Shown here: positions 32,251 through 48,527 of the stretch, piece after piece
How positions within the stretch are numbered: the stretch's first letter is position 1
Layout: every line of letters starts with the position of its first letter
Source of the DNA: a virus
Lineage: Duplodnaviria; Caudoviricetes
Strand: one strand, 5' to 3'
Virus record (IMG/VR): IMGVR_UViG_3300033067_000691
Coordinates: 1-52,517 of that record
DNA: 52,517 nt
Translations under genes and position numbers: made by a program
Notes under the pieces: generated by a model
Told to the model about the DNA's origin: nothing
Databases searched by the model: none
What the model saw: the letters and a program-made list of their open reading frames with translations, nothing else

Positions 32251-33231
32251 ATGGCAGACCCGCTTTACACCACGGCCGCCGCGCCGGCAGCTCCGGACCC
32301 CGCGAAAGTAGTCACCGGCGGGTTACTGACCACGCCAACGACTTTCACGCCGCAGACCGACCTGACGGGAACCGGGTACAACGCCACCGCCGGGACATCG
32401 ACCGGCTACGACCCGACGAAATGGAACGTCGATGCTGGCCAGACGGTATCCGGGCAACTGAAGGACATTCTGGATTCCGGAAGCCCACTGCTGAAGCAGG
32501 CCGAGGCCAGATCGAATATGCGCATGAACTCGCGCGGGCTCTTGAACAGCAGCCTCGCCGTAGGGGCCGGCCAGTCGGCGCTCTACGATGCCGCGCTGCC
32601 GATCGCGCAGGCCGATGCCCAGACCAATGCGCAGTCGGCCAACTTCAACGCCAACGCCAGCAACGTCGCCAGCCAGTTCGGCGCCGATGCCGCCAACAAG
32701 CAGTCGCTGGTGAATCAGGACGCCACCAATCGGGCAGCCGAATTCCAGGCCGGCGCCACCAACCAGGCGAACGCGACGAATCAGGAGGCGACGAATCGCG
32801 CCGCTGAGTTTGCCGCCGCCGCCGGCAATCGACTGATCGAGCAGAGCAACACGGTGACCGCCCAGGCGCGCACGGCCGATGCCGAGGCGGCAAACAAGGT
32901 GCTGATGCAAAACCTCGACAACCAGTTCAAGGTAAACATCAGCAACGCCGACGCCGCGAGCAAGGCGCAACTCCAGCTCATGTCCGACACGACCAAGAAG
33001 GATCTGGCCGCGATCGAATCGACCTACAAGCAGATGATTTCTTCGAACGAGCAGGCCGGAGCGCTCTACGGCAAGGTCATGCAGAACATTACTGACGTGG
33101 TGAACAATCCCGACATATCGGCCGAGGACAAGCAGGTTGCCATCGAAAATCAGAAGCAGCTATTGAAAACCGGGATGGACGTCGTATCTGCTGTCAGTGG
33201 CCTTGAACTCGGAGCAATCCTGACTTTCTGA
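32251..33231 (+). CDS. ejection/DNA-transfer protein candidate
   Basis: SRGLLNSS, A/N/Q-rich repeats. Confidence 0.65.
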   Translation: MADPLYTTAAAPAAPDPAKVVTGGLLTTPTTFTPQTDLTGTGYNATAGTSTGYDPTKWNVDAGQTVSGQLKDILDSGSPLLKQAEARSNMRMNSRGLLNSSLAVGAGQSALYDAALPIAQADAQTNAQSANFNANASNVASQFGADAANKQSLVNQDATNRAAEFQAGATNQANATNQEATNRAAEFAAAAGNRLIEQSNTVTAQARTADAEAANKVLMQNLDNQFKVNISNADAASKAQLQLMSDTTKKDLAAIESTYKQMISSNEQAGALYGKVMQNITDVVNNPDISAEDKQVAIENQKQLLKTGMDVVSAVSGLELGAILTF

Positions 33232-33833
33232 TGAAAACATGTTCGAAGTGCGGCACCTCAAAGCCGCTTTCTGAATTTGCTAAGAACAGGGCCTTGAAGG
33301 ACGGCCTTCAGGGAATGTGCCGCAAGTGCAGCAACGAGCACAGCCGGGCATGGAAGGCTGCCAATCCAGACCGCTGCAAGGTGCACGCCGTAGATCGATT
33401 CAAGAAGAATCCGGAGGCCGCCAAAGCAAAGACTGCAGCGCGCTATGCCGAGCGCAAGGAGCAGTACAGAGCGGCGTGCGCGAAATGGAGAGCCAACAAT
33501 CCGGAGAAAGCCAAGAGGGCCGTCGCTGCATGGGCGGCAAAGAATCGCCAGGCGATCCTGATCAACAACCACAATCGGCGAGTCAGGCAGCGTGATGGTG
33601 GCGGAAAGCTACCGCAAGGGACACACGAAAAGCTCTACGCGCTTCAGCGTGGAAAGTGTCCCTGTTGCGGTCAACCGCTTGGCGACGACTACCACCTGGA
33701 CCACATTATTCCGATTGCTCTTGGTGGAACCAACACCTTTGGCAACGTGCAATTGCTGCGCTCCACCTGCAACCAACAGAAGTACGCGAAGCATCCAGTC
33801 GCATTCATGCAAGAGCGCGGATTCTTGCTCTGA
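33231..33833 (+). CDS. HNH homing endonuclease
   Basis: KTCSKC...CPCCG...HLDHIIPIALGGTNTFGNVQLL...CN. Confidence 0.9.
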   Translation: MKTCSKCGTSKPLSEFAKNRALKDGLQGMCRKCSNEHSRAWKAANPDRCKVHAVDRFKKNPEAAKAKTAARYAERKEQYRAACAKWRANNPEKAKRAVAAWAAKNRQAILINNHNRRVRQRDGGGKLPQGTHEKLYALQRGKCPCCGQPLGDDYHLDHIIPIALGGTNTFGNVQLLRSTCNQQKYAKHPVAFMQERGFLL

Positions 33834-36812: not shown

Positions 36813-39800
36813 ATGGCCGACATTTCCATCATCAATGCCGCGATCGAGCGCGGCTACAGCCACGACGAGATTGCCGACATACTGGCCGCCGATGCCGGAT
36901 TCGATCCGAAGGCGATTCGCGGCAACGGATATTCAAGCGCCGAGATTCTTGGCCGGCTTGGGTATGAGTTGCCGAAGGTTTCCGAGTCCGGCGACTTCAT
37001 GCGCGGCGCGACGACGGCGGCCAAGCAGTTGCCGCAACTTGGCTATGGCCTGATCGGTGCTGCCGGGGCCGTCGCCGAATCCGCGCTTGGTGAGGGTGGC
37101 GTTTCCTCTGCCGTCAAGGAATTCGGCGTCAGGAAGTACCAAGAGGCTGGCGCCGACATCCAAAAGGACGCCAAGGAAACCGACTCGCTCACCTATTCAT
37201 GGGAGCGCGCCAAGCAAGGCGACTACGGCGCGATGGTGGATTGGCTCCAGTACGGCCTCGGCTATGGCGGCGTTCAGGCGCTGGAAGCCCTGGCATCCGG
37301 CGGCATCGGTGCCGTACTCGGGAAAGCCACGCTGAAGGGAACCGCCGAGCACCTGGCTGCCGGCATGGTGGCAAAGGAAGCCGCGCGCATCGGCGCAGCG
37401 CAGGAGGGCAAGGCACTTGCGGCCGATGTTGTGCAGCGGATGGCGGTTGCCAACGTAGCGGCGAACATCGGCGCAAAGGTCGGCATCGGTGCTCAAGCCT
37501 TCGGCATGGAGGGCGGCGAAATCATGGGCGGGCTGGCCGAACAGTCGGCAAAGCGCGGGAGTCCGCTGACTGGCGACGAGATCGCCAAGGGGCTAGGCGC
37601 AACGCTTGCCGCCGGCAGCCTGGAATTCGTCGGCGACAAGATCGGTGTCGACCTGATGTTGGGCAAGTCAGGCATGTTCAAGCCGGCGGCCGGAATGACT
37701 GGGATCGGCGGTCGCGTTGCACGCGCAGGAGTGGCCGCGGCTGGAGCGATCCCCATCGAAAGCGGGACCGAGTATTTCCAGACTGGCCTGGAAGAGTGGG
37801 GGCAGGGAAAGGAAGCCAACATCGCGCCGTGGAATCAGTCGCCAGAAGCGCAGCGTCAGGCCTTCGATGCCGCCGGCCTTGGTGCAGTTGGCGGCGGGGC
37901 GATGGCGGTCGGCGGCGGGCTGCTGACGCCGCCAAGCGCTCGACCTGCAATCCCTCGTGCCACCCCGGAAGATGTTGCCTCCGCCGAAACCCCGCAAGCC
38001 GCCGCCGCCGCCGTTGCTGATATGGGCGCTGGGATCGCTCCGCCGATTGCCGAATCGCTTGCTTCAACGCAATCGGAAATTGATGCATTGCTGGCCGACC
38101 CATTGACAGAATCCGCCGCCCTGGTGCAGCCATCGTCGATTATTCCCCCATCGGTTGGTGGAAACCCTGCGCTGGGTGCGGCGGATACCGTACCCAGCGG
38201 ACCGCAACAGCTACCTGGGCATGTGCTTGGTTCGCAGCCCGTGCTGCCTGAGAACTCTGGCAACAACACGAGTGGCGGAGTGAACCTGCTTGGCGATCTG
38301 GCGAACGGTAAGCCCGGCATCGAAAAAGGGGCGGATGTCGTTGATGGTGGCGCGCTGCGGGAAATGATGGCCCGTATGTTCAGCATTAGTCATGATCGCC
38401 AGATTCTCGATGCGGTTGTCAAGCTTATCCCCGTTGATGTGGTGAACTATCTCGCTGGATTCAAGCTTACGCCCGAGATGCTGTTCCATAACCCATCGAT
38501 GCTTGAGGGTGGGCTTCCCGTCCCCGGTAGCAATGATCAAGTACCCGTTCCTTCCAATGTAACCCGTGCGCTGATGAATGCCACGGCAGGCGTAGCTACA
38601 GAACACCAAACCGCTGCCGGGAATCCTGGACGTCTTTCGGTAAACAACGCTGCCACAATTGGCGCAGGCAACATGAACGCCGTTGCGCTGCCCGGCGCTG
38701 TAGTGCTTCCGGAAGCAGGGCAGGCTGCAAAAGTTTCCGGTAGCAACGAGCCTGGACGGCTTGATGTAAACGGGGGTACCGCAGGCGGTACAATTGACGA
38801 CAGGCATAGCGTGACTCCCAATAGTGACGTTGTGCTAGGGGCCGGTGGCGTTGACGCGTCATCGGCTCCGTCCATTATGCCACAAGCAAAAGTCGGCGCC
38901 GGCAGCACGCCGATTGTCACCCAGCAAAGTGACAATGCCGTTCCGCCAGGCCTCGCCCAAATGCGGGCGCGAGTCGCCGAACGCCAAGCCAGCGCCGATG
39001 CGCCAGTAGTCAAGGAATCCTTGATGGTTCCGCCGACCGCCCAGCCAGCGTCTACTAATTCCCTGCCAATCGATAGCGAAATTAGTACACCGCCAGCCGG
39101 TCAGCCTGACGAACCCGCCGGCACGGTTCAGGGCGTGAATCGCATCCGTGGCGGCAAGCTCGAGATCACCGGATTCGGCCGCGATGAAGTCGCCGATGTG
39201 CTGAAGACGGCCAAGATCGTCGCGACGGTGACTGCCGGCAAGGATGGCCGCGTGCTGGTCTCGGCAACCGACCGTGCTGGAAATGCGACCAAGATCAGCA
39301 TCAAGCAGCAGAACGCCATCAGCAAGGCGCTGCTGGGTGCTTCGGCCACCCCGAAGAAGGCGCGCAAGCTCTCAGGCAACCTGAAGAACGACCTCGACAT
39401 CATCGCACCGGGCCTCTATGGCGAAGTCGCGCGCGGTGGCGATGGCGAGGCCAACGACGCGGCATGGGGCGACGTTTCACTCATCGCTGAAAAGATGCGC
39501 GACGAGCAGGGCTACATGCTGCCGCACGACGCCAACGGGCAGGATCTCGCCAACGCCCTGCGCGAACTGATCCGCCAGCACGCCGGTGGCGATGTCGTGC
39601 TCAACGAGGCCCGCCAAGCGGCCGCAATGACCGAGGAAGAAACCAAGCGCCATCGCTCCGATGTGCTGCGCATGGCCGATGAGTACGGCATCGAGACGAA
39701 GCGCGGAATCATCCCGCGCCGACTCGAAGAGATCGAGGCCGAAGTAAAGGCAGCCATCGAGCAGGAGATTGGGGTCGCTGGCAAGGGTATGGCAGCAGCC

Positions 39801-42800
39801 TACGAAGCCGCGATCGAGGCAGGAATTCAAGACCAAGCCGATGCCATCCTCGACCGAATCGCCGATTTCTACCAAGGCGAAACGTCTGCCGACAGGGATG
39901 TTTTGCTGTATCGTGAACAGACAAACGCATTGCAGGAGGCCATCGATGCCCATCAAGAACGCGAAGGACGCGACACACAAGGCGAAGGTGCTGGCGACAA
40001 TCAACCGCAGGCAACGCGAGGCGAAGGCCGCCCAGTCCTCGAGCTCGCCGGCCAATCCGCCGAAGAAATCCGCGCCGACGAAGAGCGCGTAAAGTCCGCT
40101 GAGGCGCAACGCCTCAAGGAAGAACAGGCCGCCGAGAACAAGCGGCAGGCCGACGCCGAACGCGGCGCATTCAATCTGACCGGGAGCGACCGCCCCGCCG
40201 ATGTTCTGGCGGCGCAGGGGCAGCAGGACATTTTCAGCGCCCCCGTCGATGCGGCGGCACACGAAGCCTCCACCAGCCCGCACAACGACAAGCCGGAGCC
40301 GACGCCGGCGCAGATCGAGGCAGGTAACTACTCGAAAGGCCATGCAACCGTGGCCGGGCTCGACATCAGCATCGAGAACCCCGAAGGCTCGACGCGCTCG
40401 GGCACCGACGCCAACGGCAAGGCGTGGTCGGTCACCATGAAAAGCCATTACGGCTACATCAGGGGAACAGTCAGCAACGACAAGGATCACGTCGACGTCT
40501 TCATCAAACCCGGCACGCCGACCGACTATTCTGGTCCGATCTTCGTCATTGACCAGGTGAAAGCCAACGGCCGCTACGACGAATTCAAGGTGATGATCGG
40601 ATGGAAGTCCGAAGCCGAGGCTCGCGCCGGCTACCTCGCCAACTATGAGAAGGGATGGCGGGGCCTGGGAGCGATCACCAAGGTTTCCGTTGCCGACTTC
40701 AAGACGTGGTTGACCGAGGGCGACACCACGAAGGCGTTTGCCGGTGGAATGAAAGTCGGCGCTGGCGCGACGGCGAAAAAGCCAAGGAAGCCAAAAGCCG
40801 CCGACCCGATGATCGCAATCCGCGAGTTCTACACCCCCGGCAACATCATCCACGTCGACTACTGGAACCAGCAGGACAAGGTGCTGGCCTTCGAGGAAAA
40901 GGAGCCCGGCAACTGGTCCGTGACGGTGCAGCAAGTCAAGAAGCAGGGCGACGAGTGGGTGCCGGCCGGTGAAGTGCGAGAGCATCGGACGACGCCGGGC
41001 AAGGATCGGATCATTGATCGCGTTACCGATCCGGCCGCCTCCGATCCGGACAAGGTGGCGGCCGAGAAAGCCGATGCCGATTTCGATGAAGCCATGGGGG
41101 AACTGGGCGACATCATCGGCAAGAACTTCCGCGCGACATTCACGCCGGAGCAGGAACAAAAGTTGATCCCGGTCCTGACCAAGCTGTTCGATGCCGCCTT
41201 CCGCAAGGGCTACTACAAGTTCAAGGAAGCCGCGCGGTTCGTGCTCGGTGCCATTCAATCGAAGTTCGGCGCCGACGTTGCCGACCAGATCACGATTGAC
41301 CATTTGCAGGGCGCCTATATCGGCATGGCAGGACGCTACAAGGATCAGGGCGCCGACAAGCCGGCTGTGGTTGCGGCCGTAGAGAGCAAGGACGAAATAT
41401 CGGCATGGTCTACAATGGAAACAGGAGGTATCGACAATGGGCCTGAGCAGCGTAGCGGCGCCGATCTGGAACGAGATAGCGAAGACGCAGACCCTGAAGA
41501 CGGAATGGGCGAGGAAAGCATTCGCCCTGGACGATCAGGCGATGTCGGATCTCGAGAATCGGGAGTATCAGGAACTGAAGCCCAAGGTCGGGCAGGCAGT
41601 GGCAGCAGCATTTTCGGACCTGAAGCCCCTGCTGCTGGAGAACCAGGCGATCAGTCGATATATACAGGCGCAGGGCGACCCGTCATTGAGGCAGGCGCTG
41701 CCGGAAGTGGTGTCGATAGCGGAAGCGATAGCGATAGCCTCGATGGATCGCCCATTGAGCCCACTTCAACAGACCTCTTTGCAGAACTTGCTGAAAGCCG
41801 AGTATCGCTAGACGAGGCCAAGGCCAAGCAACAGGCGGCTGACCGGCTGGAGCACAAGCCGGGCATCGCAAATATCCGTGAGACGCTGCCGATCCTCACC
41901 GAAGGCCAGCAGCAGGACGTCCACATTGCAGAAACCCGGTTTGCCAAGCCCGACGGCTACGGCATGCTGTTCACCAACGGCACCGGTACCGGCAAGACAT
42001 TCACCGGCCTTGGCATCATCAAGCGCATGGCGGTTTCTGGCAAGCGCAACGTCATCATCGCCGTGCCGAACGACAAGATTGCCGACGACTGGCGCAAGTC
42101 TGGGAAGCTGCTCGGACTCGACATTTCCCTGCTGGAGAACACCAAGGACGCCGGTCGCGGGATCGTCATCACCACCTACGCCAACTTCGGACAGAACCCG
42201 GAACTAGCGCGTCGCGAGTGGGATCTGGTTGTCGCCGATGAGGCGCACAAGCTCGCCATGAATGCGAGCGGCGAGGCAACGCTGGCGCTCGATGCGCTCC
42301 AGGCGCTGACGCTGCACCCTGATGGCGCCTACACCCGGGCAAGGATGCTGCATGCCGACCTGTACGCGCGCCTCGATGAGCTTGAAGCGCTGGCCAAGTC
42401 GCAGCGCATGTCTGACGACGAGCGCAACTGGCACGCCGAGAGCGGAACTCAGACCAAGATTGATTCGCTGCGCCGCGAGATCGATGCCAAGGTGGAGGCC
42501 ATCAAGGAGGACATCGCGGCTCGCCAGGGCGAAGCCAGGCCGCGCGCCCTGTTCCTGTCGGCGACGCCGTTTGCCTATGAGAAGACTGTCGATTGGGCGA
42601 ATGGCTACCTATTCGACTACAACGAGGGACGCGGCGACGAGCGCAACGAATTCCGGGGCTACAACGAGGGCAGCAATCGCGACCAGTTCTTCATGCAGCA
42701 CTTCGGCTACCGGATGCGTTACGGCAAGCTGACCGAGCCGGACTCCAAGGTCGACCGTGGCCTGATGCAGCGCCAGTTCAATGGCTGGCTGAAGAAGCGC

Positions 42801-45800
42801 GGCGCCGTGGCGGGCCGAATGCTGGACGTCAAGGCGGACTATGATCGCCGTTTCATCCTGGTCGAATCAGCCATCGGAGCGCGCATCGATCAGGCGCTGG
42901 AGTGGTTCGAGACGCAACGCAAGGCGCAGAACAGGGGCACCGGGGAAGCCGGAGAGCGTATTGCCGCCATCATGGCCAAGGCCGACCCGCGCGCCGTGGC
43001 GCTGGGCAAACTGCGTGACAAGATCGCGGAGAAATTCGATTACCTGTCGCGGCGCTACCTGCTCGAAGCCATCAAGGCGCAGGAGGTCGTGCCGCACGTT
43101 CGCGAGCATCTGGCGCTGGGCCGCAAGGTTGTCGTCTTTCACGACTACAAGAAGGGCGGCGGATTCAACCCGTTCCGGATCTCCCCGATTTCCGGCACCG
43201 CCGAATCCAAGGAAGCGCAGGCGGAAAACGACGCCTACAACCGCGTGGTCGAGGAATTCACCACGGAATTCTCCGACCTGATCGAATCGGACCTGTGGCG
43301 TGCGTCTTCACCGATCACGACATTCCAGCAGGAATTCCCGGGCGTGCTGCTGTTCAATGGCAACGTGCCGAAAGCGCAGCGTCGCGCCGCCGTCGAGAAG
43401 TTCCAGGACGACGCCAGCGGACCGCAAGTGATCCTCGTACAGTCGGATGCCGGAAAGGAAGGCATCAGCCTGCATGACACGACCGGCGTGCATCAGCGCG
43501 TGCTATTCAACCTTGGCCAGCCCACGGCGCCGACGACGGCCATTCAGCAGGAGGGCCGCATCTACCGCACCGGCCAGGTCACGGATGCCATCTTCCGCTA
43601 CCTGAACACCGGCACCGACTGGGAGAAGTGGGCCTTTGCGACGACCATCGCCCAGCGCGCCAGCGCGGCCGAGAATCTGGGCATGGGTGAGCAGGCTCGG
43701 GCGCTGAAGGATGCGTTCATTGCCGGCTTCGAGGAATCCGACGACTACCGCGCCGGCATGGACGGCGAGGGCAAGGGCGGCAAGGAGCGCGACCGCGCGG
43801 CGAACGAGGCAATTACAGAATACGACCGCGCCCGCGCCTTCTATTTCGGCACCCAGAAGAAGACCGCCAAGACCAAGGCGCAGGAAGGTGTCGACTACTT
43901 CGCGACGCCTGAGCCGGTCGGCTTCAAGATGATGGAGTGGGCCGACATCCGGCCGGGAGAGGCCGTGCTGGAACCCAGCGCCGGCCACGGCGCCATCGCG
44001 CGCTGGATGCCGGATACGGCCGTGCGAACCGCCATCGAACCGAGCATGACGCTGCGCTCACGCCTGGCCATGGTCTTCGACGGCACGATGCTCGATCACG
44101 ATTTCGAGGATCTGAACATCGTCAACAAGTACGACGCCATCGTGATGAACCCGCCTTTCGGATCCGGAGGCAAGACGGCGATCGACCATCTGGCCAAGGC
44201 GGCGACGCACCTGCGCGATGGCGGGCGCATTGTCGCCTTGATCCCGCGCGGACCTGCGGCTGACAAGCGCTTCGACAAGTGGTTCTATGAGGAAAGTGAG
44301 AAGGCCAGCAAGCCGATCGTTCCAGCTTCAGCGCTTAATGTTGGAGAGGAAATTCATCGAGGGGACACGGTAAGGATATTCGGGTTCGGGCGGAACAGTG
44401 ACATGGTTGTTGATCGCGCCGACAAGATCAACGGGGTCTATTACATTCGGCCAGAAGGAGCGGACAAAGCCAGCAGCATCAACGTGACTGCCGTTGAAGC
44501 TGTTATCCCCGGCAAGCGCACCGAGTCCTACAAGCCGGCGGAAGGCCTGAATCTGGTTGCCGACGTGGTGATGCCGAACGTGACCTTCGAGCGCGCTGGT
44601 ACGCAGGTTGCTACGCGCATCGTGGTGATCGAAAAGTCGCCCGACGCGCCGCAACTTTTCAGCCCAAGCTTTGTGGATGTTGAGGACATCAACGAGCTAT
44701 TCGATCGCATGGAAGGAACAACGGTCGAGGGCCGCGCGAAGCCTGAAGTTGTGGAGGTCGAGGCCGCGCCGTCGAAGACCGGGAAAGCCGCCAAGCCTGT
44801 CGTTGATCAGGAAGCTGCAAAGGCGGCGGCCGAGACCATGGGCCTGAATATCATCGAGCACATCACGCAGAAGGGCAAGACGCTGCGCGGCGTGGTTCGC
44901 ACCGATCTGACGCGCGACCAGGCGAAGGAGATCGACGAATTCACGTTCAAGAAGGACGGCGGCTGGTTCATTCGCGAAAAGCATCTTGTCGCGAAGCCTG
45001 GCGAAAGCGGCGGCGCACTCGAATCCCGCTCCGATTCCATGACGCGAGAGCAGGCTGAAATGATCATCGCTGCCTCACGCGGCGGGATCCACACCGGCGA
45101 GACGGTCGGATCGATTCGCTCAGGACTTCATCAGTCGATCGGAAAGGCCGTGATCGACCGGCTGGAACAGAAGGGCTTGCTGCGCATCCTCAAGACCGCC
45201 GACGATCTGCCGTATGGCCTGACGCTTTCCGAGACAGGTACCGCCCTGTATGACGGCAATGTGGCCTACCTGATCGCCGACCGGATGCGACCTGAGACGG
45301 CCGTCCGCGAGATCCTGCACGAGATTGGCGAACACCACGGGCTTGAGGGGATGCTGGGGAAGGATGGCTATGCCGCGCTAACGAGGCGCGTTCGCGCCAT
45401 GGAGAAGTTCGGCAATCAGCGCGTGCGCGACGCCTTCGCCACGGTTCGCCAGCTCTATCCGGAATACGCAGACAACTCTGCCGAGTTCATGCATGAAGTG
45501 CTGGCCAACATCGGCCAGGATGCCGACATTCAGGCAAAGCCATGGTGGCAGGAAATGCTCGCCGCGGTCAAGCGCTGGATCGTGCAGATCGGCTACGGCG
45601 GTCTGATCAAGGCCGGCGATATTCAGGACATGGTGCTGCATAGCCTGAAGGTGGCGGCTGGAGAGGATCACTTTGCCGGCGCCGGCAATATGATCCCGGC
45701 GATGGCATCGAAGTCCGGATCTCCCGCGATGGAAGCACGCCAGACGCGCCAGCAGGCGCTACCGAACACAGGCACGCCGCCGGCACCAGCGCCGGTCCGT

Positions 45801-48527
45801 CAGACCCCGATGGGTTTGCAGGGCGGCGCCACGGGCAACAACGCCTCATGGAACGGTTATCAGGCGTCCAAGCTGGATGACGTGATCCGGACCCTTCAGG
45901 ACAAGCACATCGACAGCAAGCGCACGGTGCAGGCAATCAAGGCTGCCGGGCGCCAAGTCGCCGACAAGTGGGACGTCTACCTGCAGGAATCGCTGTTCCA
46001 TGGCCGCGCGGCAAAGCGGACGCTGGAGTTCGTTGAAACCGAGCTGACGCCGCTGGCGCAGGATTTGGCCATGCGCGGTCTCACACTTGATGAGCTCGAC
46101 CAGTACCTGCACGCGCGCCATGCGGAAGAAGCAAATGCCCTGATCGCCCAGCGCAATCCAGCGATTCCCGATGGCGGCTCCGGCATGACCAACCAGCAGG
46201 CGCACGACTACTTCACCAGCCTGGACCCGTCGAAGCGCAAGCGGCTGGAAGCCTCGGCCGCCCGGGTGGATGCCATCATTGCCAACACGCGCAAGCTCTA
46301 CGTCAGCTATGGGCTGGAATCGCAGGAAACCATCGACGGCTGGGCCGACACCTTCCAGCATTACGTGCCGCTGATGCGCGAGGACAAGGACGGCGGCATG
46401 GGCATCGGTCAAGGCTTTTCGGTCAAGGGCAAAGAGTCCAAGAGCCGCACCGGTTCGACCCGCGCCGTGGTGGATATTCTGGCCAACATCGCCATGCAGC
46501 GCGAACGCGCCGTCGTGCGCGGCGAGAAGAACCGGGTTTCCGTGTCCCTGCTGGGCCTGGCCAAGCTGAACCCGAACCCCGGCTTCTGGATGACGGACCG
46601 CATTCCGATGATCACCGGCCTGAACCCGGCAACCGGACTGGTTGAGACCTATCCGGATCCCGGCTACAAGAGCCGTGAGAATGTCGTCGTGGCCAAGGTT
46701 CCCGACGGCAAGGGTGGTATTCAGGAGCGCGCTGTCGTCTTCAACGAGGAAAACGAACAGGCCATGAACATGGCGCGCGCGCTGAAGAATCTGGACGCCG
46801 CACAGCTTGAGGGCTTGATGGGTGCGGCGTCGCGCGTGACGCGCTACTTTGCGTCGATCAATACCCAGTACAACCCGGTCTTCGGCGTGACCAACCTGGT
46901 GCGAGACGTGCAGGACGCCATGCTGAACCTGTCGTCGACGCCGATCGCCGGCCACAAGGCCGACGTGCTGAAGCACACGCTCGGGGCCCTGCGCGGGATC
47001 TACATCGATACCCGTCAAATGCGCAAGGGCCAGCCGGCGACGTCGGCCTACGCTCAACTGTGGGAGGAATTCCAGCATGAGGGCGGGCAGACTGGTTACC
47101 GCGACATGTTCCGCACCAGCGCCGACCGTGCGCGCGCCATCGAGAGGGCCATCAACCCGACGCAATGGATGGACAGCCCCCTGGGTCAGGTCTTCACTGC
47201 CGGCGGCGCGCTGCGGGTTCCCGTTGCCGTCGCGCAGCAAAAGGCGACCTGGCTATTCGACTGGTTGAGCGACTACAACGAGTCGATGGAGAACGCCGTG
47301 CGCCTGGCCGCCTACAAGGTGGGGCTGGAGCAGGGCATGAGTAAGCAGCAGGCGGCGGCGATGGCCAAGAGCTTGACGGTGAATTTCAACCGCAAGGGGC
47401 AGATCGGCATGCAGGCCGGCGCGCTCTACGCCTTCTTCAATGCTTCCATGCAGGGCACCGGCCGCATCGCGCAGACGCTGTTCACCATCCAGGGCAACGA
47501 CATCAAGACCGTCAGGCTGTCCAAGTCCGGACAGAAGATCGTCGCCGGCGGCATCCTGCTGGGAAGCCTCCAGGCGCTGATGCTGATGGCCGCCGGCTTC
47601 GGTGATGATGAGCCCCCGGAGTTCGTGCGCGAGCGCAATACCATCATCCCGATCGGCAACAAGAAGTACGTCACGATCCCCATGCCGCTCGGCTTTGCCG
47701 TCCTGCCCAACATCGGCCGCATCGCTACCGAGTTCGTCATGGGTGGATTCAAGAACCCAGCGAAGCACGTCACGCGCCTGCTTGGCATCGCCGCGGATGC
47801 CTTCAACCCGATTGGCGGCAACGGAACAGTGTTGCAGATGGTCACGCCGACCGCCTTGGATCCGCTGGCCGCGATTGCCGAGAACAAGGACTGGACCAAG
47901 AAGCCGATTGCCAAGGTGGCCTATGACAAGACCACGCCGGGGCACAAGCTCTGGAAGGATACGGCCAGCACGCCGGGAAAGCTGATCGCCGAGGCGATCA
48001 ACGCGATGTCAGGCGGCAACAAGTACGTTGCCGGCAGCCTGAGCCCGACGCCAGACCAGATTGATTACCTGTTTGGCCAGGTGACTGGCGGTGTTGGTCG
48101 CGAGCTGTCGAAGACCGAACAATCGATCATGGCCACGGTGCGCGGCGAGGATTTGCCTCCGCACAAGATTCCCTTGGTCGGCCGGTTCTATGGCGACGCC
48201 AATGCGCAAAGCAGCCAGGGTACGACCTTCTACAACAACATCAACCGCATCAAGGAGTACGAAAACACAATCAAAGGTCTTCGGGAAGACAAGAAGGGCG
48301 AGGAAGCCGCCAAGTTCATCGCCAAGAATCCCGAGGCGCGGCTGGTGATGCGTGCGAACTACACCGAACGCGTGGTGCAAAAGCTTCGCAAGGAAAAGCA
48401 TGATCTGGTCGAGAAGGATGCGCCGCGCGAGCGCATCAAGATGCTGGAAGACCGGATCAAGACGGAAATGCAGCGCTTCAACGATGCCGTGAAGGCGTCA
48501 AAGAAGCGAGAGAAGGAAGCGGCCTGA
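36813..48527 (+). CDS. giant polyvalent DarB-like injected protein: InPase-like, SF2 helicase, N6-adenine methyltransferase, zincin-like and LPD38-like domains
   Basis: PTPAQIEAGNYSKGH (~40300); NGTGTGKT and DEAH (~41980-42250); EPSAGHG and NPPF (~43970-44160); HEIGEHHG (~45320); NFNRKG...FFNASMQG (~47380-47460). Confidence 0.85.
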   Translation: MADISIINAAIERGYSHDEIADILAADAGFDPKAIRGNGYSSAEILGRLGYELPKVSESGDFMRGATTAAKQLPQLGYGLIGAAGAVAESALGEGGVSSAVKEFGVRKYQEAGADIQKDAKETDSLTYSWERAKQGDYGAMVDWLQYGLGYGGVQALEALASGGIGAVLGKATLKGTAEHLAAGMVAKEAARIGAAQEGKALAADVVQRMAVANVAANIGAKVGIGAQAFGMEGGEIMGGLAEQSAKRGSPLTGDEIAKGLGATLAAGSLEFVGDKIGVDLMLGKSGMFKPAAGMTGIGGRVARAGVAAAGAIPIESGTEYFQTGLEEWGQGKEANIAPWNQSPEAQRQAFDAAGLGAVGGGAMAVGGGLLTPPSARPAIPRATPEDVASAETPQAAAAAVADMGAGIAPPIAESLASTQSEIDALLADPLTESAALVQPSSIIPPSVGGNPALGAADTVPSGPQQLPGHVLGSQPVLPENSGNNTSGGVNLLGDLANGKPGIEKGADVVDGGALREMMARMFSISHDRQILDAVVKLIPVDVVNYLAGFKLTPEMLFHNPSMLEGGLPVPGSNDQVPVPSNVTRALMNATAGVATEHQTAAGNPGRLSVNNAATIGAGNMNAVALPGAVVLPEAGQAAKVSGSNEPGRLDVNGGTAGGTIDDRHSVTPNSDVVLGAGGVDASSAPSIMPQAKVGAGSTPIVTQQSDNAVPPGLAQMRARVAERQASADAPVVKESLMVPPTAQPASTNSLPIDSEISTPPAGQPDEPAGTVQGVNRIRGGKLEITGFGRDEVADVLKTAKIVATVTAGKDGRVLVSATDRAGNATKISIKQQNAISKALLGASATPKKARKLSGNLKNDLDIIAPGLYGEVARGGDGEANDAAWGDVSLIAEKMRDEQGYMLPHDANGQDLANALRELIRQHAGGDVVLNEARQAAAMTEEETKRHRSDVLRMADEYGIETKRGIIPRRLEEIEAEVKAAIEQEIGVAGKGMAAAYEAAIEAGIQDQADAILDRIADFYQGETSADRDVLLYREQTNALQEAIDAHQEREGRDTQGEGAGDNQPQATRGEGRPVLELAGQSAEEIRADEERVKSAEAQRLKEEQAAENKRQADAERGAFNLTGSDRPADVLAAQGQQDIFSAPVDAAAHEASTSPHNDKPEPTPAQIEAGNYSKGHATVAGLDISIENPEGSTRSGTDANGKAWSVTMKSHYGYIRGTVSNDKDHVDVFIKPGTPTDYSGPIFVIDQVKANGRYDEFKVMIGWKSEAEARAGYLANYEKGWRGLGAITKVSVADFKTWLTEGDTTKAFAGGMKVGAGATAKKPRKPKAADPMIAIREFYTPGNIIHVDYWNQQDKVLAFEEKEPGNWSVTVQQVKKQGDEWVPAGEVREHRTTPGKDRIIDRVTDPAASDPDKVAAEKADADFDEAMGELGDIIGKNFRATFTPEQEQKLIPVLTKLFDAAFRKGYYKFKEAARFVLGAIQSKFGADVADQITIDHLQGAYIGMAGRYKDQGADKPAVVAAVESKDEISAWSTMETGGIDNGPEQRSGADLERDSEDADPEDGMGEESIRPGRSGDVGSRESGVSGTEAQGRAGSGSSIFGPEAPAAGEPGDQSIYTGAGRPVIEAGAAGSGVDSGSDSDSLDGSPIEPTSTDLFAELAESRVSLDEAKAKQQAADRLEHKPGIANIRETLPILTEGQQQDVHIAETRFAKPDGYGMLFTNGTGTGKTFTGLGIIKRMAVSGKRNVIIAVPNDKIADDWRKSGKLLGLDISLLENTKDAGRGIVITTYANFGQNPELARREWDLVVADEAHKLAMNASGEATLALDALQALTLHPDGAYTRARMLHADLYARLDELEALAKSQRMSDDERNWHAESGTQTKIDSLRREIDAKVEAIKEDIAARQGEARPRALFLSATPFAYEKTVDWANGYLFDYNEGRGDERNEFRGYNEGSNRDQFFMQHFGYRMRYGKLTEPDSKVDRGLMQRQFNGWLKKRGAVAGRMLDVKADYDRRFILVESAIGARIDQALEWFETQRKAQNRGTGEAGERIAAIMAKADPRAVALGKLRDKIAEKFDYLSRRYLLEAIKAQEVVPHVREHLALGRKVVVFHDYKKGGGFNPFRISPISGTAESKEAQAENDAYNRVVEEFTTEFSDLIESDLWRASSPITTFQQEFPGVLLFNGNVPKAQRRAAVEKFQDDASGPQVILVQSDAGKEGISLHDTTGVHQRVLFNLGQPTAPTTAIQQEGRIYRTGQVTDAIFRYLNTGTDWEKWAFATTIAQRASAAENLGMGEQARALKDAFIAGFEESDDYRAGMDGEGKGGKERDRAANEAITEYDRARAFYFGTQKKTAKTKAQEGVDYFATPEPVGFKMMEWADIRPGEAVLEPSAGHGAIARWMPDTAVRTAIEPSMTLRSRLAMVFDGTMLDHDFEDLNIVNKYDAIVMNPPFGSGGKTAIDHLAKAATHLRDGGRIVALIPRGPAADKRFDKWFYEESEKASKPIVPASALNVGEEIHRGDTVRIFGFGRNSDMVVDRADKINGVYYIRPEGADKASSINVTAVEAVIPGKRTESYKPAEGLNLVADVVMPNVTFERAGTQVATRIVVIEKSPDAPQLFSPSFVDVEDINELFDRMEGTTVEGRAKPEVVEVEAAPSKTGKAAKPVVDQEAAKAAAETMGLNIIEHITQKGKTLRGVVRTDLTRDQAKEIDEFTFKKDGGWFIREKHLVAKPGESGGALESRSDSMTREQAEMIIAASRGGIHTGETVGSIRSGLHQSIGKAVIDRLEQKGLLRILKTADDLPYGLTLSETGTALYDGNVAYLIADRMRPETAVREILHEIGEHHGLEGMLGKDGYAALTRRVRAMEKFGNQRVRDAFATVRQLYPEYADNSAEFMHEVLANIGQDADIQAKPWWQEMLAAVKRWIVQIGYGGLIKAGDIQDMVLHSLKVAAGEDHFAGAGNMIPAMASKSGSPAMEARQTRQQALPNTGTPPAPAPVRQTPMGLQGGATGNNASWNGYQASKLDDVIRTLQDKHIDSKRTVQAIKAAGRQVADKWDVYLQESLFHGRAAKRTLEFVETELTPLAQDLAMRGLTLDELDQYLHARHAEEANALIAQRNPAIPDGGSGMTNQQAHDYFTSLDPSKRKRLEASAARVDAIIANTRKLYVSYGLESQETIDGWADTFQHYVPLMREDKDGGMGIGQGFSVKGKESKSRTGSTRAVVDILANIAMQRERAVVRGEKNRVSVSLLGLAKLNPNPGFWMTDRIPMITGLNPATGLVETYPDPGYKSRENVVVAKVPDGKGGIQERAVVFNEENEQAMNMARALKNLDAAQLEGLMGAASRVTRYFASINTQYNPVFGVTNLVRDVQDAMLNLSSTPIAGHKADVLKHTLGALRGIYIDTRQMRKGQPATSAYAQLWEEFQHEGGQTGYRDMFRTSADRARAIERAINPTQWMDSPLGQVFTAGGALRVPVAVAQQKATWLFDWLSDYNESMENAVRLAAYKVGLEQGMSKQQAAAMAKSLTVNFNRKGQIGMQAGALYAFFNASMQGTGRIAQTLFTIQGNDIKTVRLSKSGQKIVAGGILLGSLQALMLMAAGFGDDEPPEFVRERNTIIPIGNKKYVTIPMPLGFAVLPNIGRIATEFVMGGFKNPAKHVTRLLGIAADAFNPIGGNGTVLQMVTPTALDPLAAIAENKDWTKKPIAKVAYDKTTPGHKLWKDTASTPGKLIAEAINAMSGGNKYVAGSLSPTPDQIDYLFGQVTGGVGRELSKTEQSIMATVRGEDLPPHKIPLVGRFYGDANAQSSQGTTFYNNINRIKEYENTIKGLREDKKGEEAAKFIAKNPEARLVMRANYTERVVQKLRKEKHDLVEKDAPRERIKMLEDRIKTEMQRFNDAVKASKKREKEAA
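38211..38807 (-). CDS. HNH endonuclease with two zinc fingers and C-terminal HTH, nested antisense in the giant ORF
   Basis: CTAC...FCSLPC, CANC...FCSYAC, HRWVMEQHLGRKL...VHHINGDKLDNRIENL; GGGAG RBS. Confidence 0.85.
   Translation of the reverse strand: MPVVNCTACGTPVYIKPSRLVATGNFCSLPCFRKHYSAGQRNGVHVACANCGSVVYRKTSRIPGSGLVFCSYACRGIHQRTGYIGRNGYLIIATGDGKPTLKHRWVMEQHLGRKLESSEIVHHINGDKLDNRIENLAIMTNAEHTGHHFPQRATINDIRPFFDAGLTVRQIAKQVHSATRVVARVLRQHGLRTKHMPR
38838..38882 (-). promoter_or_regulatory. extended -10 promoter and leader hairpin for the nested HNH
   Basis: Minus strand TGgCATAAT (-10 at 38874-38879); hairpin 38838-38869. Confidence 0.5.
39946..40092 (+). CDS. possible nested out-of-frame 48-aa basic peptide
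   Basis: AGGAGG 6 nt before the ATG, within a linker of the giant ORF. Confidence 0.35.
   Translation: MPIKNAKDATHKAKVLATINRRQREAKAAQSSSSPANPPKKSAPTKSA
41437..41811 (+). CDS. nested out-of-frame 124-aa helical protein
   Basis: TACAAT (41411-16) and AGGAGGT (41423-29); giant frame here is a disordered G/S/D/E linker. Confidence 0.7.
   Translation: MGLSSVAAPIWNEIAKTQTLKTEWARKAFALDDQAMSDLENREYQELKPKVGQAVAAAFSDLKPLLLENQAISRYIQAQGDPSLRQALPEVVSIAEAIAIASMDRPLSPLQQTSLQNLLKAEYR

What the first reader, a model, noticed from the sequence alone, without database searches (positions are those of the whole stretch)
41405..41811. Out-of-frame overprinted gene with its own -10 and perfect RBS inside the giant ORF
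Seen: TACAAT, then AGGAGGT, then ATG opening a 124-aa amphipathic-helical ORF in the +1 frame. The giant frame over the same span is a disordered acidic linker just before the helicase domain. Inference: an independently expressed moron-like gene, possibly an inhibitor or immunity partner for the injected enzymatic domains, or a superinfection-exclusion factor.
Basis: partly seen in the sequence, partly recalled or inferred. Interest (0 to 1): 0.8.

Follow-up and report, generated by a model that had tools for sequence, protein, structure and literature searches.

The report
Hidden gene inside phage giant gene
A small, well-folded protein is encoded in a shifted reading frame inside the floppy spacer of a phage's giant injected-enzyme gene, is conserved in every sampled relative yet left unannotated in cultured phages, and its function is still unknown.

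Summary
TACAAT (41411-41416), AGGAGGT (41423-41429) and ATG 41437 open a 124-aa ORF ending at TAG 41809-41811. It lies in the +1 frame of the 3904-aa polyvalent (DarB-like) gene 36813-48527.

It is a real gene, which I call X. Among 80 viral loci picked by helicase similarity alone, 80 of 80 carry an X homologue, always in the +1 frame. All 72 unique copies have an ATG at the same place and the giant frame open across X. Six of six cultured phages with this helicase have X, and none annotates it.

Selection acts on the X frame. Base composition and substitution periodicity follow X. X beats the giant frame in amino-acid identity in 105 of 105 pairs. Against the closest relative, 15 changes are silent in X and 2 are silent in the giant. 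A Shine-Dalgarno site is conserved.

AlphaFold gives X eight helices at pLDDT 89. The giant frame over the same DNA is coil at pLDDT about 30. X matches no known family or fold.

"Moron-like" is not supported, because X is a fixed companion of the helicase module. A promoter is unproven and the function is unknown.

The parts
41437..41811 (+). Gene X: 124-aa embedded coding sequence (ATG 41437, TAG 41809-41811), +1 frame relative to the giant gene
   Evidence: Homologues in 80 of 80 helicase-selected loci, always in the +1 frame. Selection follows the X frame. AF2 pLDDT 89.1.
41423..41429 (+). Shine-Dalgarno sequence AGGAGGT, 7 nt before the X start codon
   Evidence: Duplex energy -11.6 kcal/mol. 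An SD-like site (<= -5) is present in 46 of 53 and 62 of 72 unique relatives, against 16.6% of control ATGs.
41411..41416 (+). -10-like hexamer TACAAT, 26 nt before the ATG. Its function is unproven.
   Evidence: No promoter was called by the scan. A >=5/6 hexamer at -45..-18 occurs in 18 of 107 unique relatives, against 7.3 +/- 2.4 in shuffles. It is enriched but not conserved.
41380..41382 (+). Stop codon (TAG) in the X frame, 18 codons before the X ATG. It limits any frameshift entry from the giant frame.
   Evidence: In relatives this stop lies <= 5 codons before the ATG in 29 of 107.
36813..48527 (+). Giant polyvalent (DarB-like) protein gene, 3904 aa, last gene of the structural-gene run
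   Evidence: Pfam finds InPase, ResIII/SNF2/Helicase_C, MTS and LPD38. Terminase, portal and tail fibre lie upstream on the same strand.
41406..41801 (+). Giant-frame disordered linker (giant residues 1532-1663) that X overlaps
   Evidence: AF2 pLDDT 25-44 with no secondary structure. G/S/E/A/D-rich, pI 4.05. This frame is kept free of stops although P(no stop) under synonymous recoding is 0.000-0.26 per locus.
41070..41405 (+). Folded helical domain of the giant protein just upstream of the linker (giant residues 1420-1531). It travels with X and the helicase.
   Evidence: AF2 pLDDT about 90. In L003, L006, L023 and L060 the helicase-bearing frame opens only 171-235 codons before X. Homology to the closest relative starts near 41040.
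41979..41999 (+). Helicase Walker A motif (GTGTGKT) in the giant frame, about 57 residues after the X stop
   Evidence: The motif lies 30-65 aa after the X stop in 43 of 53 unique loci.

Best explanation
X (41437-41811) is a genuine protein-coding gene. It is read in the +1 frame inside the giant polyvalent (DarB-like) gene and makes a soluble, mildly acidic, eight-helix protein of about 124 aa.

Shown:
- The DNA is dual-coding.
- Purifying selection acts mainly on X.
- The overlapped giant segment is a disordered spacer whose main detectable constraint is staying free of stop codons.
- X has a conserved ATG and a Shine-Dalgarno site.
- X is a fixed companion of one module (helical domain, linker, SNF2-type helicase, methyltransferase), always ending about 30-65 residues before the helicase Walker A.

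Inferred:
- Ribosomes start internally at the X site on the late mRNA that also carries the giant gene. No separate promoter is needed.
- The embedded arrangement is ancestral for all sampled copies. The few stand-alone copies are later escapes.
- Function: X most likely works with or for the helicase-methylase module in the producing cell, as a chaperone, assembly factor or regulator. I put this at only about 35%. A host-directed role independent of the helicase is about equally likely.
For: Presence and frame:
- An X HMM hit occurs in 80 of 80 viral loci chosen by helicase similarity only, and all are +1 to the helicase frame.
- Those loci give 72 unique copies. All 72 have an ATG at the profile start and the giant frame open across X. 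Lengths are 120-141 aa.
- In an earlier set of 53 unique copies, the giant-equivalent frame has no stop across X in 51.
- 6 of 6 cultured phages with this helicase have X.
- The family is large: 561 cluster representatives at E <= 1e-3, one of them spurious, and 357 proteins.

Selection:
- GC3 periodicity follows the X frame.
- In 15 sequences, nucleotide differences at X positions 1/2/3 are 0.43/0.36/0.53. In the giant frame position 3 is the least variable. Amino-acid identity is 0.464 for X against 0.291 for the giant, with X higher in 105 of 105 pairs.
- Window against L003: 24 differences, 17 at X position 3, 15 silent in X against 2 silent in the giant, and 6 against 19 amino-acid changes.
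- Six independent close pairs: 60/64/120 differences by X position, and 93 against 152 amino-acid changes.

Both frames are kept: P(no stop in the giant frame) under synonymous recoding is 0.000-0.26 per locus.

Start site: SD energy <= -5 in 46 of 53 against 16.6% of 4871 control ATGs, Mann-Whitney p = 4e-25.

Fold: X has pLDDT 89.1 and pTM 0.82. The giant frame over the same DNA has pLDDT below 50.

Escape of stand-alone copies:
- L016 has 1 stop in the ghost giant frame against 12.8 +/- 2.7 expected.
- The three stand-alone copies fall in three separate supported clades among embedded ones (quick tree).
Against: - There is no direct evidence of expression. No RNA run holds the stretch, and no proteomics or ribosome profiling was found.
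- For the functional link to the helicase, the only positive evidence is co-occurrence and fixed position, which physical overlap alone would produce.
- Intact stand-alone copies sit in two MAGs where this helicase was not found with my query (MAG completeness unknown). X-domain fusions to unrelated sequence also exist. Both suggest X can act without the helicase.
- The sequences are phylogenetically related, so the counts are not independent events.
- Only the best 80 of 338 helicase relatives were examined.
Confidence: 0.88

Rival explanations
1. One reading: X is an independently transcribed moron-like accessory gene with its own -10 promoter, acting for example as an immunity or superinfection-exclusion factor.
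For: - TACAAT lies 26 nt before the ATG.
- -10-like hexamers at -45..-18 are enriched: 18 of 107 unique loci against 7.3 +/- 2.4 in shuffles and 2.2% elsewhere in the loci.
- GC dips to 0.44 at -30..-20.
- Stand-alone copies show X can live as its own gene.
Against: - 89 of 107 relatives lack such a hexamer.
- The scan called no promoter or terminator on the plus strand.
- Only 7 of the 18 have even a 4/6 -35 match.
- The A+T-rich dip is also what an unstructured translation start region looks like.
- X is universal in the clade (80 of 80) and has genome-typical composition, unlike a moron.
Confidence: 0.1
2. X is not started independently. It is reached by a programmed +1 frameshift from the giant frame, giving a truncated N-terminal giant protein ending in X. 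Alternatively, ribosomes leave X by a -1 shift into the helicase frame.
For: Phage structural genes do use programmed frameshifts (recalled general knowledge). The X frame is open for 18 codons before the ATG in the window.
Against: - A stop in the X frame lies <= 5 codons before the ATG in 29 of 107 loci and <= 10 codons in 44 of 107.
- An ATG at the same profile position occurs in 72 of 72, with an SD in 62 of 72.
- Gene callers' proteins start at profile positions 1-3.
- A canonical -1 slippery heptamer in the last 45 codons occurs in only 2 of 107.
- Stand-alone copies start at the same ATG.
Confidence: 0.03
3. The 'giant' is really two genes with X between them, and the giant frame across X is open only by chance or by assembly.
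For: - The linker frame is poorly conserved (amino-acid identity 0.291) and predicted disordered.
- In some relatives the helicase-bearing frame opens only 171-235 codons before X.
Against: - The giant frame is open across X in 72 of 72 and 51 of 53 unique copies.
- P(no stop) is 0.000-0.26 per locus under recoding with flanking codon usage.
- In several loci X's codon choice avoids the T-ending codons that would create stops (permutation against flank usage).
- Even where the frame opens late, it opens upstream of X and includes the folded upstream domain.
Confidence: 0.03
4. The ORF is a non-functional by-product of a G+C-rich sequence.
For: Many long alternative-frame ORFs exist in this 62% G+C window, including a 608-aa antisense one.
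Against: Everything listed for the best explanation. In addition, X is also present as a 131-aa ORF in two Vibrio phage records and in a 45% G+C stand-alone copy.
Confidence: 0.01

Closest known systems
Out-of-frame embedded phage genes such as lambda Rz1 inside Rz, and phiX174 genes E in D and B in A (recalled from general knowledge, not fetched here)
   Same: A complete small gene lies inside a larger gene in another frame on the same strand. It has its own ribosome-binding site, and both products are kept by selection.
   Different: The host gene here is an 11.7-kb multidomain gene, and the overlap is confined to an interdomain disordered spacer. Almost all of the selection sits on the embedded gene. 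X has no lipoprotein or membrane signal (maximum 19-aa hydropathy 1.07) and no similarity to those proteins.
Large polyvalent proteins of phages and conjugative elements (Iyer et al. 2017, PMC5512222; I read only passages found by term search)
   Same: The host gene has the hallmark domains InPase, SNF2-type helicase, methyltransferase and LPD38. LPD38 and InPase are listed there as phage-type polyvalent domains.
   Different: The main text of that paper has 0 occurrences of 'overlap', 'frameshift' or 'out-of-frame'. A second gene hidden in the linker is not described there. I could not see its supplements.
P1 DarB with its accessory proteins DarA, Hdf and DdrA (recalled)
   Same: A virion-delivered helicase-methyltransferase depends on small companion proteins. 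This is the working analogy for a partner role for X. GenBank annotators call the host gene 'DarB-like' in Parlo and Skulduggery.
   Different: This helicase clade is distinct. tblastn at E <= 1e-5 found only 8 records from 6 phages. X has no detectable similarity to any annotated family. The companion here is encoded inside the enzyme's own gene.
Overprinted de novo viral genes (reviewed in PMC8227390 and PMC3494269; I saw only the search listing and abstracts)
   Same: X is an orphan family with no fold relatives. It is restricted to one locus and paired with a frame of unusual composition.
   Different: Per those abstracts and my recollection, the younger frame is usually the disordered one under weaker constraint. 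Here the embedded orphan is the ordered, strongly constrained one and the host frame is disordered, so the direction of origin is open.

Membership tests
Embedded out-of-frame (overlapping) phage gene | A complete ORF inside another gene, on the same strand but in a different frame | tested here: met
   X 41437-41811 lies inside 36813-48527 in the +1 frame.
Embedded out-of-frame (overlapping) phage gene | Both frames are kept open in diverged relatives, beyond chance | tested here: met
   72 of 72 and 51 of 53. The recoding null gives 0.000-0.26 per locus.
Embedded out-of-frame (overlapping) phage gene | Protein-level purifying selection on the embedded frame | tested here: met
   The family profile gives a confident AF2 fold.
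Embedded out-of-frame (overlapping) phage gene | Own translation start | tested here: met
   Conserved ATG and SD. This is sequence evidence only.
Embedded out-of-frame (overlapping) phage gene | The product is detected in infected cells | not testable with these tools
   No RNA holder is listed. No proteomics was found in the papers searched.
Moron | Own promoter and terminator flanking the gene | tested here: not met
   0 terminators and no plus-strand promoter in 40800-42400. A -10-like hexamer occurs in only 18 of 107 relatives.
Moron | Sporadic presence among related phages and atypical composition | tested here: not met
   Present in 80 of 80 loci and 6 of 6 phages. The GC pattern is typical of the genome in the X frame.
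Programmed-frameshift product | A slippery site and an open entry path between the frames | tested here: not met
   A slippery heptamer in 2 of 107. An upstream stop <= 5 codons before the ATG in 29 of 107.
Known small anti-restriction, anti-defence or defence protein families | Sequence or fold similarity to a described family | tested here: not met
   No hits in Pfam, PHROGs (only E = 0.016-0.033 for two relatives), NCBIfam, PADLOC (one E = 0.0023 hit for L016 only) or the PDB sequence profile. Foldseek against PDB and BFVD gave 0 hits at E <= 0.001. The ESM Atlas gave no usable hit.
Large polyvalent protein (the host gene) | Several unrelated enzymatic domains plus LPD domains in one phage polypeptide | tested here: met
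   InPase 6e-54, LPD38 3e-44, ResIII/Helicase_C and MTS.

The most novel reading that the evidence does not exclude
X was born de novo inside the permissive disordered linker of an ancestral helicase-methylase gene. It then evolved into a compact eight-helix protein with a fold unlike anything solved. It became an indispensable companion of this ejected enzyme module, for example keeping it inactive or assembly-competent in the producer cell. It later escaped at least twice to independent life in bacterial genomes, still carrying the stop-free 'ghost' of the giant frame. If so, this would be a rare, widely replicated natural example of a fully folded protein arising by overprinting. It would also mean that DarB-like polyvalent genes are two-gene systems.
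Probability: 0.3. Interest if true: 0.85.

Novelty: new variant of a known kind. Interest (0 to 1): 0.72.

Why it matters
Giant polyvalent (DarB-like) genes are read as single genes, and standard annotation discards ORFs nested in them. All six cultured-phage records checked annotate only the giant coding sequence.

A conserved, well-folded protein of unknown fold sits in every sampled member of this helicase clade, and its family has more than 500 sequence clusters. Any genetic or structural study of these ejected enzymes may therefore be perturbing two proteins at once.

The locus is also an unusually clean natural case of dual coding: an ordered protein written across a disordered linker. 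Both frames have dated 'fossils' in the escaped copies, which is useful for studying how overlapping genes arise and resolve.

It is directly testable in non-pathogen hosts, for example Skulduggery on P. fluorescens SBW25, Ruegeria phage 45A6, and Vibrio phage 1.232.O.

Tried and rejected
Function searches that gave nothing:
- Pfam, PHROGs, NCBIfam, PADLOC, the PDB sequence profile, Foldseek against PDB and BFVD, and the ESM Atlas.
- Pfam on eight longer X-containing proteins: 0 families.
- P0128 is a tandem-repeat artefact, not a relative.

Complex prediction: X was run against giant residues 1420-2290. The result was no verdict (runs 0.62, 0.00, 0.00; controls were not folded). This is not evidence either way.

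The look-up of sequencing runs: no RNA holder is listed. I did not use read laying, because Logan contigs of metagenomes cannot show starts or expression.

Other results that added nothing:
- tblastn of X against plasmids: no match.
- The neighbours of stand-alone X in L018 show no similarity to the giant protein.
- Literature: searches and term look-ups in PMC5512222 and PMC10052179 found no description of this embedded gene. Supplements were closed and might hold proteomic tables I could not see.

Explanations considered and rejected: chance ORF, frameshift product, and two separate genes (see rivals).

Direction of origin (X first or linker first) could not be settled. The helicase clade and X have the same sampled distribution.

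The frame check printed used a wrong offset and is ignored. The giant coding sequence annotation covers those loci.

The tree is the quick tree. The careful search did not finish in the time allowed.

Rows dropped:
- L011 (identical to L010), L016 and L018.
- L059 (no ATG found; 1000-nt contig).
- L016, L018, L032 and L065 from the embedded-only analyses.
- Six short loci from alignment A3.
Full report
**The observation**

The letters are as described: TACAAT at 41411-41416, AGGAGGT at 41423-41429, a 7-nt spacer, and ATG at 41437. A 124-codon ORF follows and ends at TAG 41809-41811. I call it X.

X lies in the +1 frame of a 3904-aa ORF, 36813-48527. Pfam identifies that ORF as a phage-type large polyvalent protein: InPase 6e-54, ResIII/SNF2/Helicase_C, MTS and LPD38 3e-44. 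The giant gene closes a same-strand run that includes terminase, portal and tail fibre genes. The window is a virus record of about 62% G+C.

A 124-aa alternative-frame ORF means little at this G+C content. One search lists many, including a 608-aa antisense one. AGGAGGT occurs 5 times in the window against 3.15 expected. The case therefore rests on other evidence.

**Composition**

Across the whole giant gene, G+C at codon positions 1/2/3 is 0.65/0.46/0.76. In 41463-41762 it is 0.74/0.62/0.41 in the giant frame. That is the normal pattern moved into the X frame. Windows on either side return to the giant-frame pattern.

**Relatives**

- tblastn with X found full-length matches of 47-95% identity in five IMG/VR contigs.
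- A profile found 14 viral loci, 3 genome loci and 43 metagenome loci.
- Together with four cultured-phage loci, this gave 64 loci with a recognisable X start and 53 unique X sequences. L059 was dropped because no ATG was found.
- The giant-equivalent frame has no stop across X in 51 of the 53.

The strongest test is independent of X. I fetched loci by helicase similarity alone, keeping the best 80 of 338 relatives, with helicase identity down to about 40%. An HMM of X hit 80 of 80, always in the +1 frame relative to the helicase. Among the 72 unique copies:
- all have an ATG at the profile start;
- all have the giant frame open across X;
- lengths are 120-141 aa;
- 62 have an SD-like site.

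In the GenBank phage collection this helicase is found in only 8 records from 6 phages, even at E <= 1e-5. All six carry X:
- Ruegeria phage 45A6, Klebsiella phage vB_KpnP_ZX1, Serratia phage Parlo and Pseudomonas phage Skulduggery;
- Vibrio phages 1.232.O and D274, each with a 131-aa ORF.

In all six records the only annotated feature there is the giant coding sequence.

Protein databases hold many gene-caller versions of X, mostly 120-130 aa. There are 357 at E <= 1e-3 and 561 cluster representatives, 438 of them at E <= 1e-10. One of the 561, P0128, is a repeat artefact.

**Which frame is under selection**

- In 15 embedded sequences, mean pairwise differences at X codon positions 1/2/3 are 0.43/0.36/0.53. 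In the giant frame, position 3 is the least variable (0.52/0.44/0.38). In the flanks, giant position 3 is the most variable.
- Mean amino-acid identity is 0.464 for X and 0.291 for the giant frame over the same DNA. X is higher in 105 of 105 pairs.
- Against the closest relative (L003) there are 24 differences in 378 nt. Of these, 17 fall at X position 3. Fifteen are silent in X and two are silent in the giant. This gives 6 amino-acid changes in X against 19 in the giant.
- Six independent close pairs sum to 60/64/120 differences by X position, and to 93 amino-acid changes in X against 152 in the giant.

The giant frame is nevertheless kept open. Recoding X synonymously with flanking codon usage leaves the giant frame stop-free with probability 0.000-0.26 per locus. 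In several loci X's own codon choice avoids the offending T-ending codons. Both frames are therefore maintained, and X carries nearly all of the residue-level constraint.

**Expression signals**

- Pairing to the anti-SD is -11.6 kcal/mol in the window. It is <= -5 in 46 of 53 unique relatives, against 16.6% of 4871 control ATGs in the same loci, p = 4e-25.
- A stop in the X frame lies <= 5 codons before the ATG in 29 of 107 unique embedded loci. Canonical slippery heptamers near the X end occur in 2 of 107. Entry or exit by frameshifting is therefore unlikely.
- The scan tool called no plus-strand promoter and no terminator in the window.
- A >=5/6 -10-like hexamer at -45..-18 occurs in 18 of 107 unique loci, against 7.3 +/- 2.4 in shuffles and 2.2% elsewhere (the smaller set is).
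- That enrichment coincides with an A+T-rich dip that any translation start region would show, and 89 of 107 loci lack the hexamer. The related sequences also inflate the contrast.

I conclude that internal initiation on the late mRNA is sufficient to express X. An extra promoter in some lineages, including this one, is possible but unproven.

**Structure**

- With a 70-sequence alignment, AlphaFold2 gives X eight helices with pLDDT 89.1 and pTM 0.82.
- The giant frame was modelled from residue 1420 to 1816 with 40 sequences. It shows a confident helical domain (pLDDT about 90), then residues 1532-1663 at pLDDT 25-44 without secondary structure, then a confident helicase N-terminus.
- The disordered stretch matches the X overlap almost exactly.
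- X is soluble, with pI 5.1 (family median 5.4) and no hydrophobic segment. The linker is G/S/E/A/D-rich with pI 4.05.
- X has no relatives by family or fold.

**Module and history**

- X ends 30-65 residues before the helicase Walker A in 43 of 53 unique loci.
- In L003, L006, L023 and L060 the helicase-bearing frame opens only 171-235 codons before X.
- The window's closest relative shares sequence only from about 41040 onward.
- The mobile unit is therefore the upstream helical domain, the linker with X, the helicase and what follows it.

Three stand-alone copies exist:
- L016, in a Desulfamplus MAG, sits in A+T-rich intergenic DNA.
- L018, in a Burkholderiales MAG, lies beside a Type III restriction enzyme gene, PADLOC 4.6e-221.
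- L065 has X as the N-terminus of a 374-aa protein with four CRKxE-like repeats.

The helicase was not found in the genomes holding L016 and L018 with my query. These are MAGs of unknown completeness.

L016 has a single stop in the ghost giant frame, against 12.8 +/- 2.7 expected (0 of 3000 simulations as low). L018 has 0 against 2.9 expected (P = 0.046), and L065 has 1 against 3.6 expected (P = 0.10).

In a quick maximum-likelihood tree of 109 X proteins, the three stand-alone copies lie in three separate supported clades among embedded copies. The embedded state therefore looks ancestral for everything sampled, and the stand-alone copies look like escapes.

Whether X arose inside the linker or an older gene was overprinted cannot be decided. 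X and this helicase clade have the same sampled distribution.

**Function**

Nothing identifies the function. The co-fold of X with giant residues 1420-2290 returned no verdict and is not used as evidence.

Strict linkage to the helicase module suggests a partner or regulator role. Survival of intact escaped copies, and of fusions to unrelated sequence, suggests X can act alone. I put about 35% on each reading.

**Prior knowledge**

- The polyvalent-protein paper (PMC5512222) has no mention of overlap, frameshift or out-of-frame in its main text.
- Three literature searches and a look-up in a Lastavirus paper found no description of this gene.
- Supplements were closed.
- Earlier notes of this scan cover the giant gene only.

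**Verdict**

X is a real, conserved embedded gene of a new orphan family, unannotated in the six cultured-phage records checked. The 'moron' label and the promoter claim are not supported, and the function is open.

Noticed in passing
L016:115-895: The stand-alone X in a Desulfamplus MAG is bracketed by 35-nt direct repeats that contain a CCCC-ATGA-GGGG hairpin. Copies lie at 115, 180 and 861, so the spacings are 65 nt and then 681 nt. The 65-nt spacing looks CRISPR-like, but the 646-nt unit holding X does not. It could be a repeat-flanked cassette. The locus is at a contig end.
   Followed up: partly
L065:752-1876: X forms the N-terminal domain of a 374-aa protein. Its C-terminal part has four repeats of a motif like L..CRK.E....A. 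Other longer X-containing proteins exist: P0208 (557 aa, with acidic repeats), P0163 (408 aa) and P0175 (402 aa, with a hydrophobic tail). None has a Pfam match.
   Followed up: partly
L018:1292-6138: Stand-alone X sits between a 517-aa ORF with no family and a convergent Type III restriction enzyme gene, PADLOC REase_III 4.6e-221.
   Followed up: partly
window 39477-41303 (-) and 39663-40262: A 608-aa antisense ORF lies inside the giant gene. Separately, there is a stretch where giant-frame G+C at position 1 exceeds position 3 (0.71-0.83 against 0.58-0.70). The second probably reflects an Ala/Glu/Gly-rich segment. Neither was tested for conservation.
   Followed up: no
window ~41040; L003:2355-3000: The closest relative (92-95% identical downstream) is unalignable upstream of about 41040, and its helicase-bearing frame opens 215 codons before X. 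This marks a mosaic junction. The N-terminal 1400 aa of the window's giant protein is a swappable block.
   Followed up: partly
window 33231-33830 (+): A 200-aa HNH / endonuclease VII-like protein lies among the tail-region genes (PHROG 1035, 2e-35). It also gives a weaker Lar-like match in its N-terminal half.
   Followed up: no
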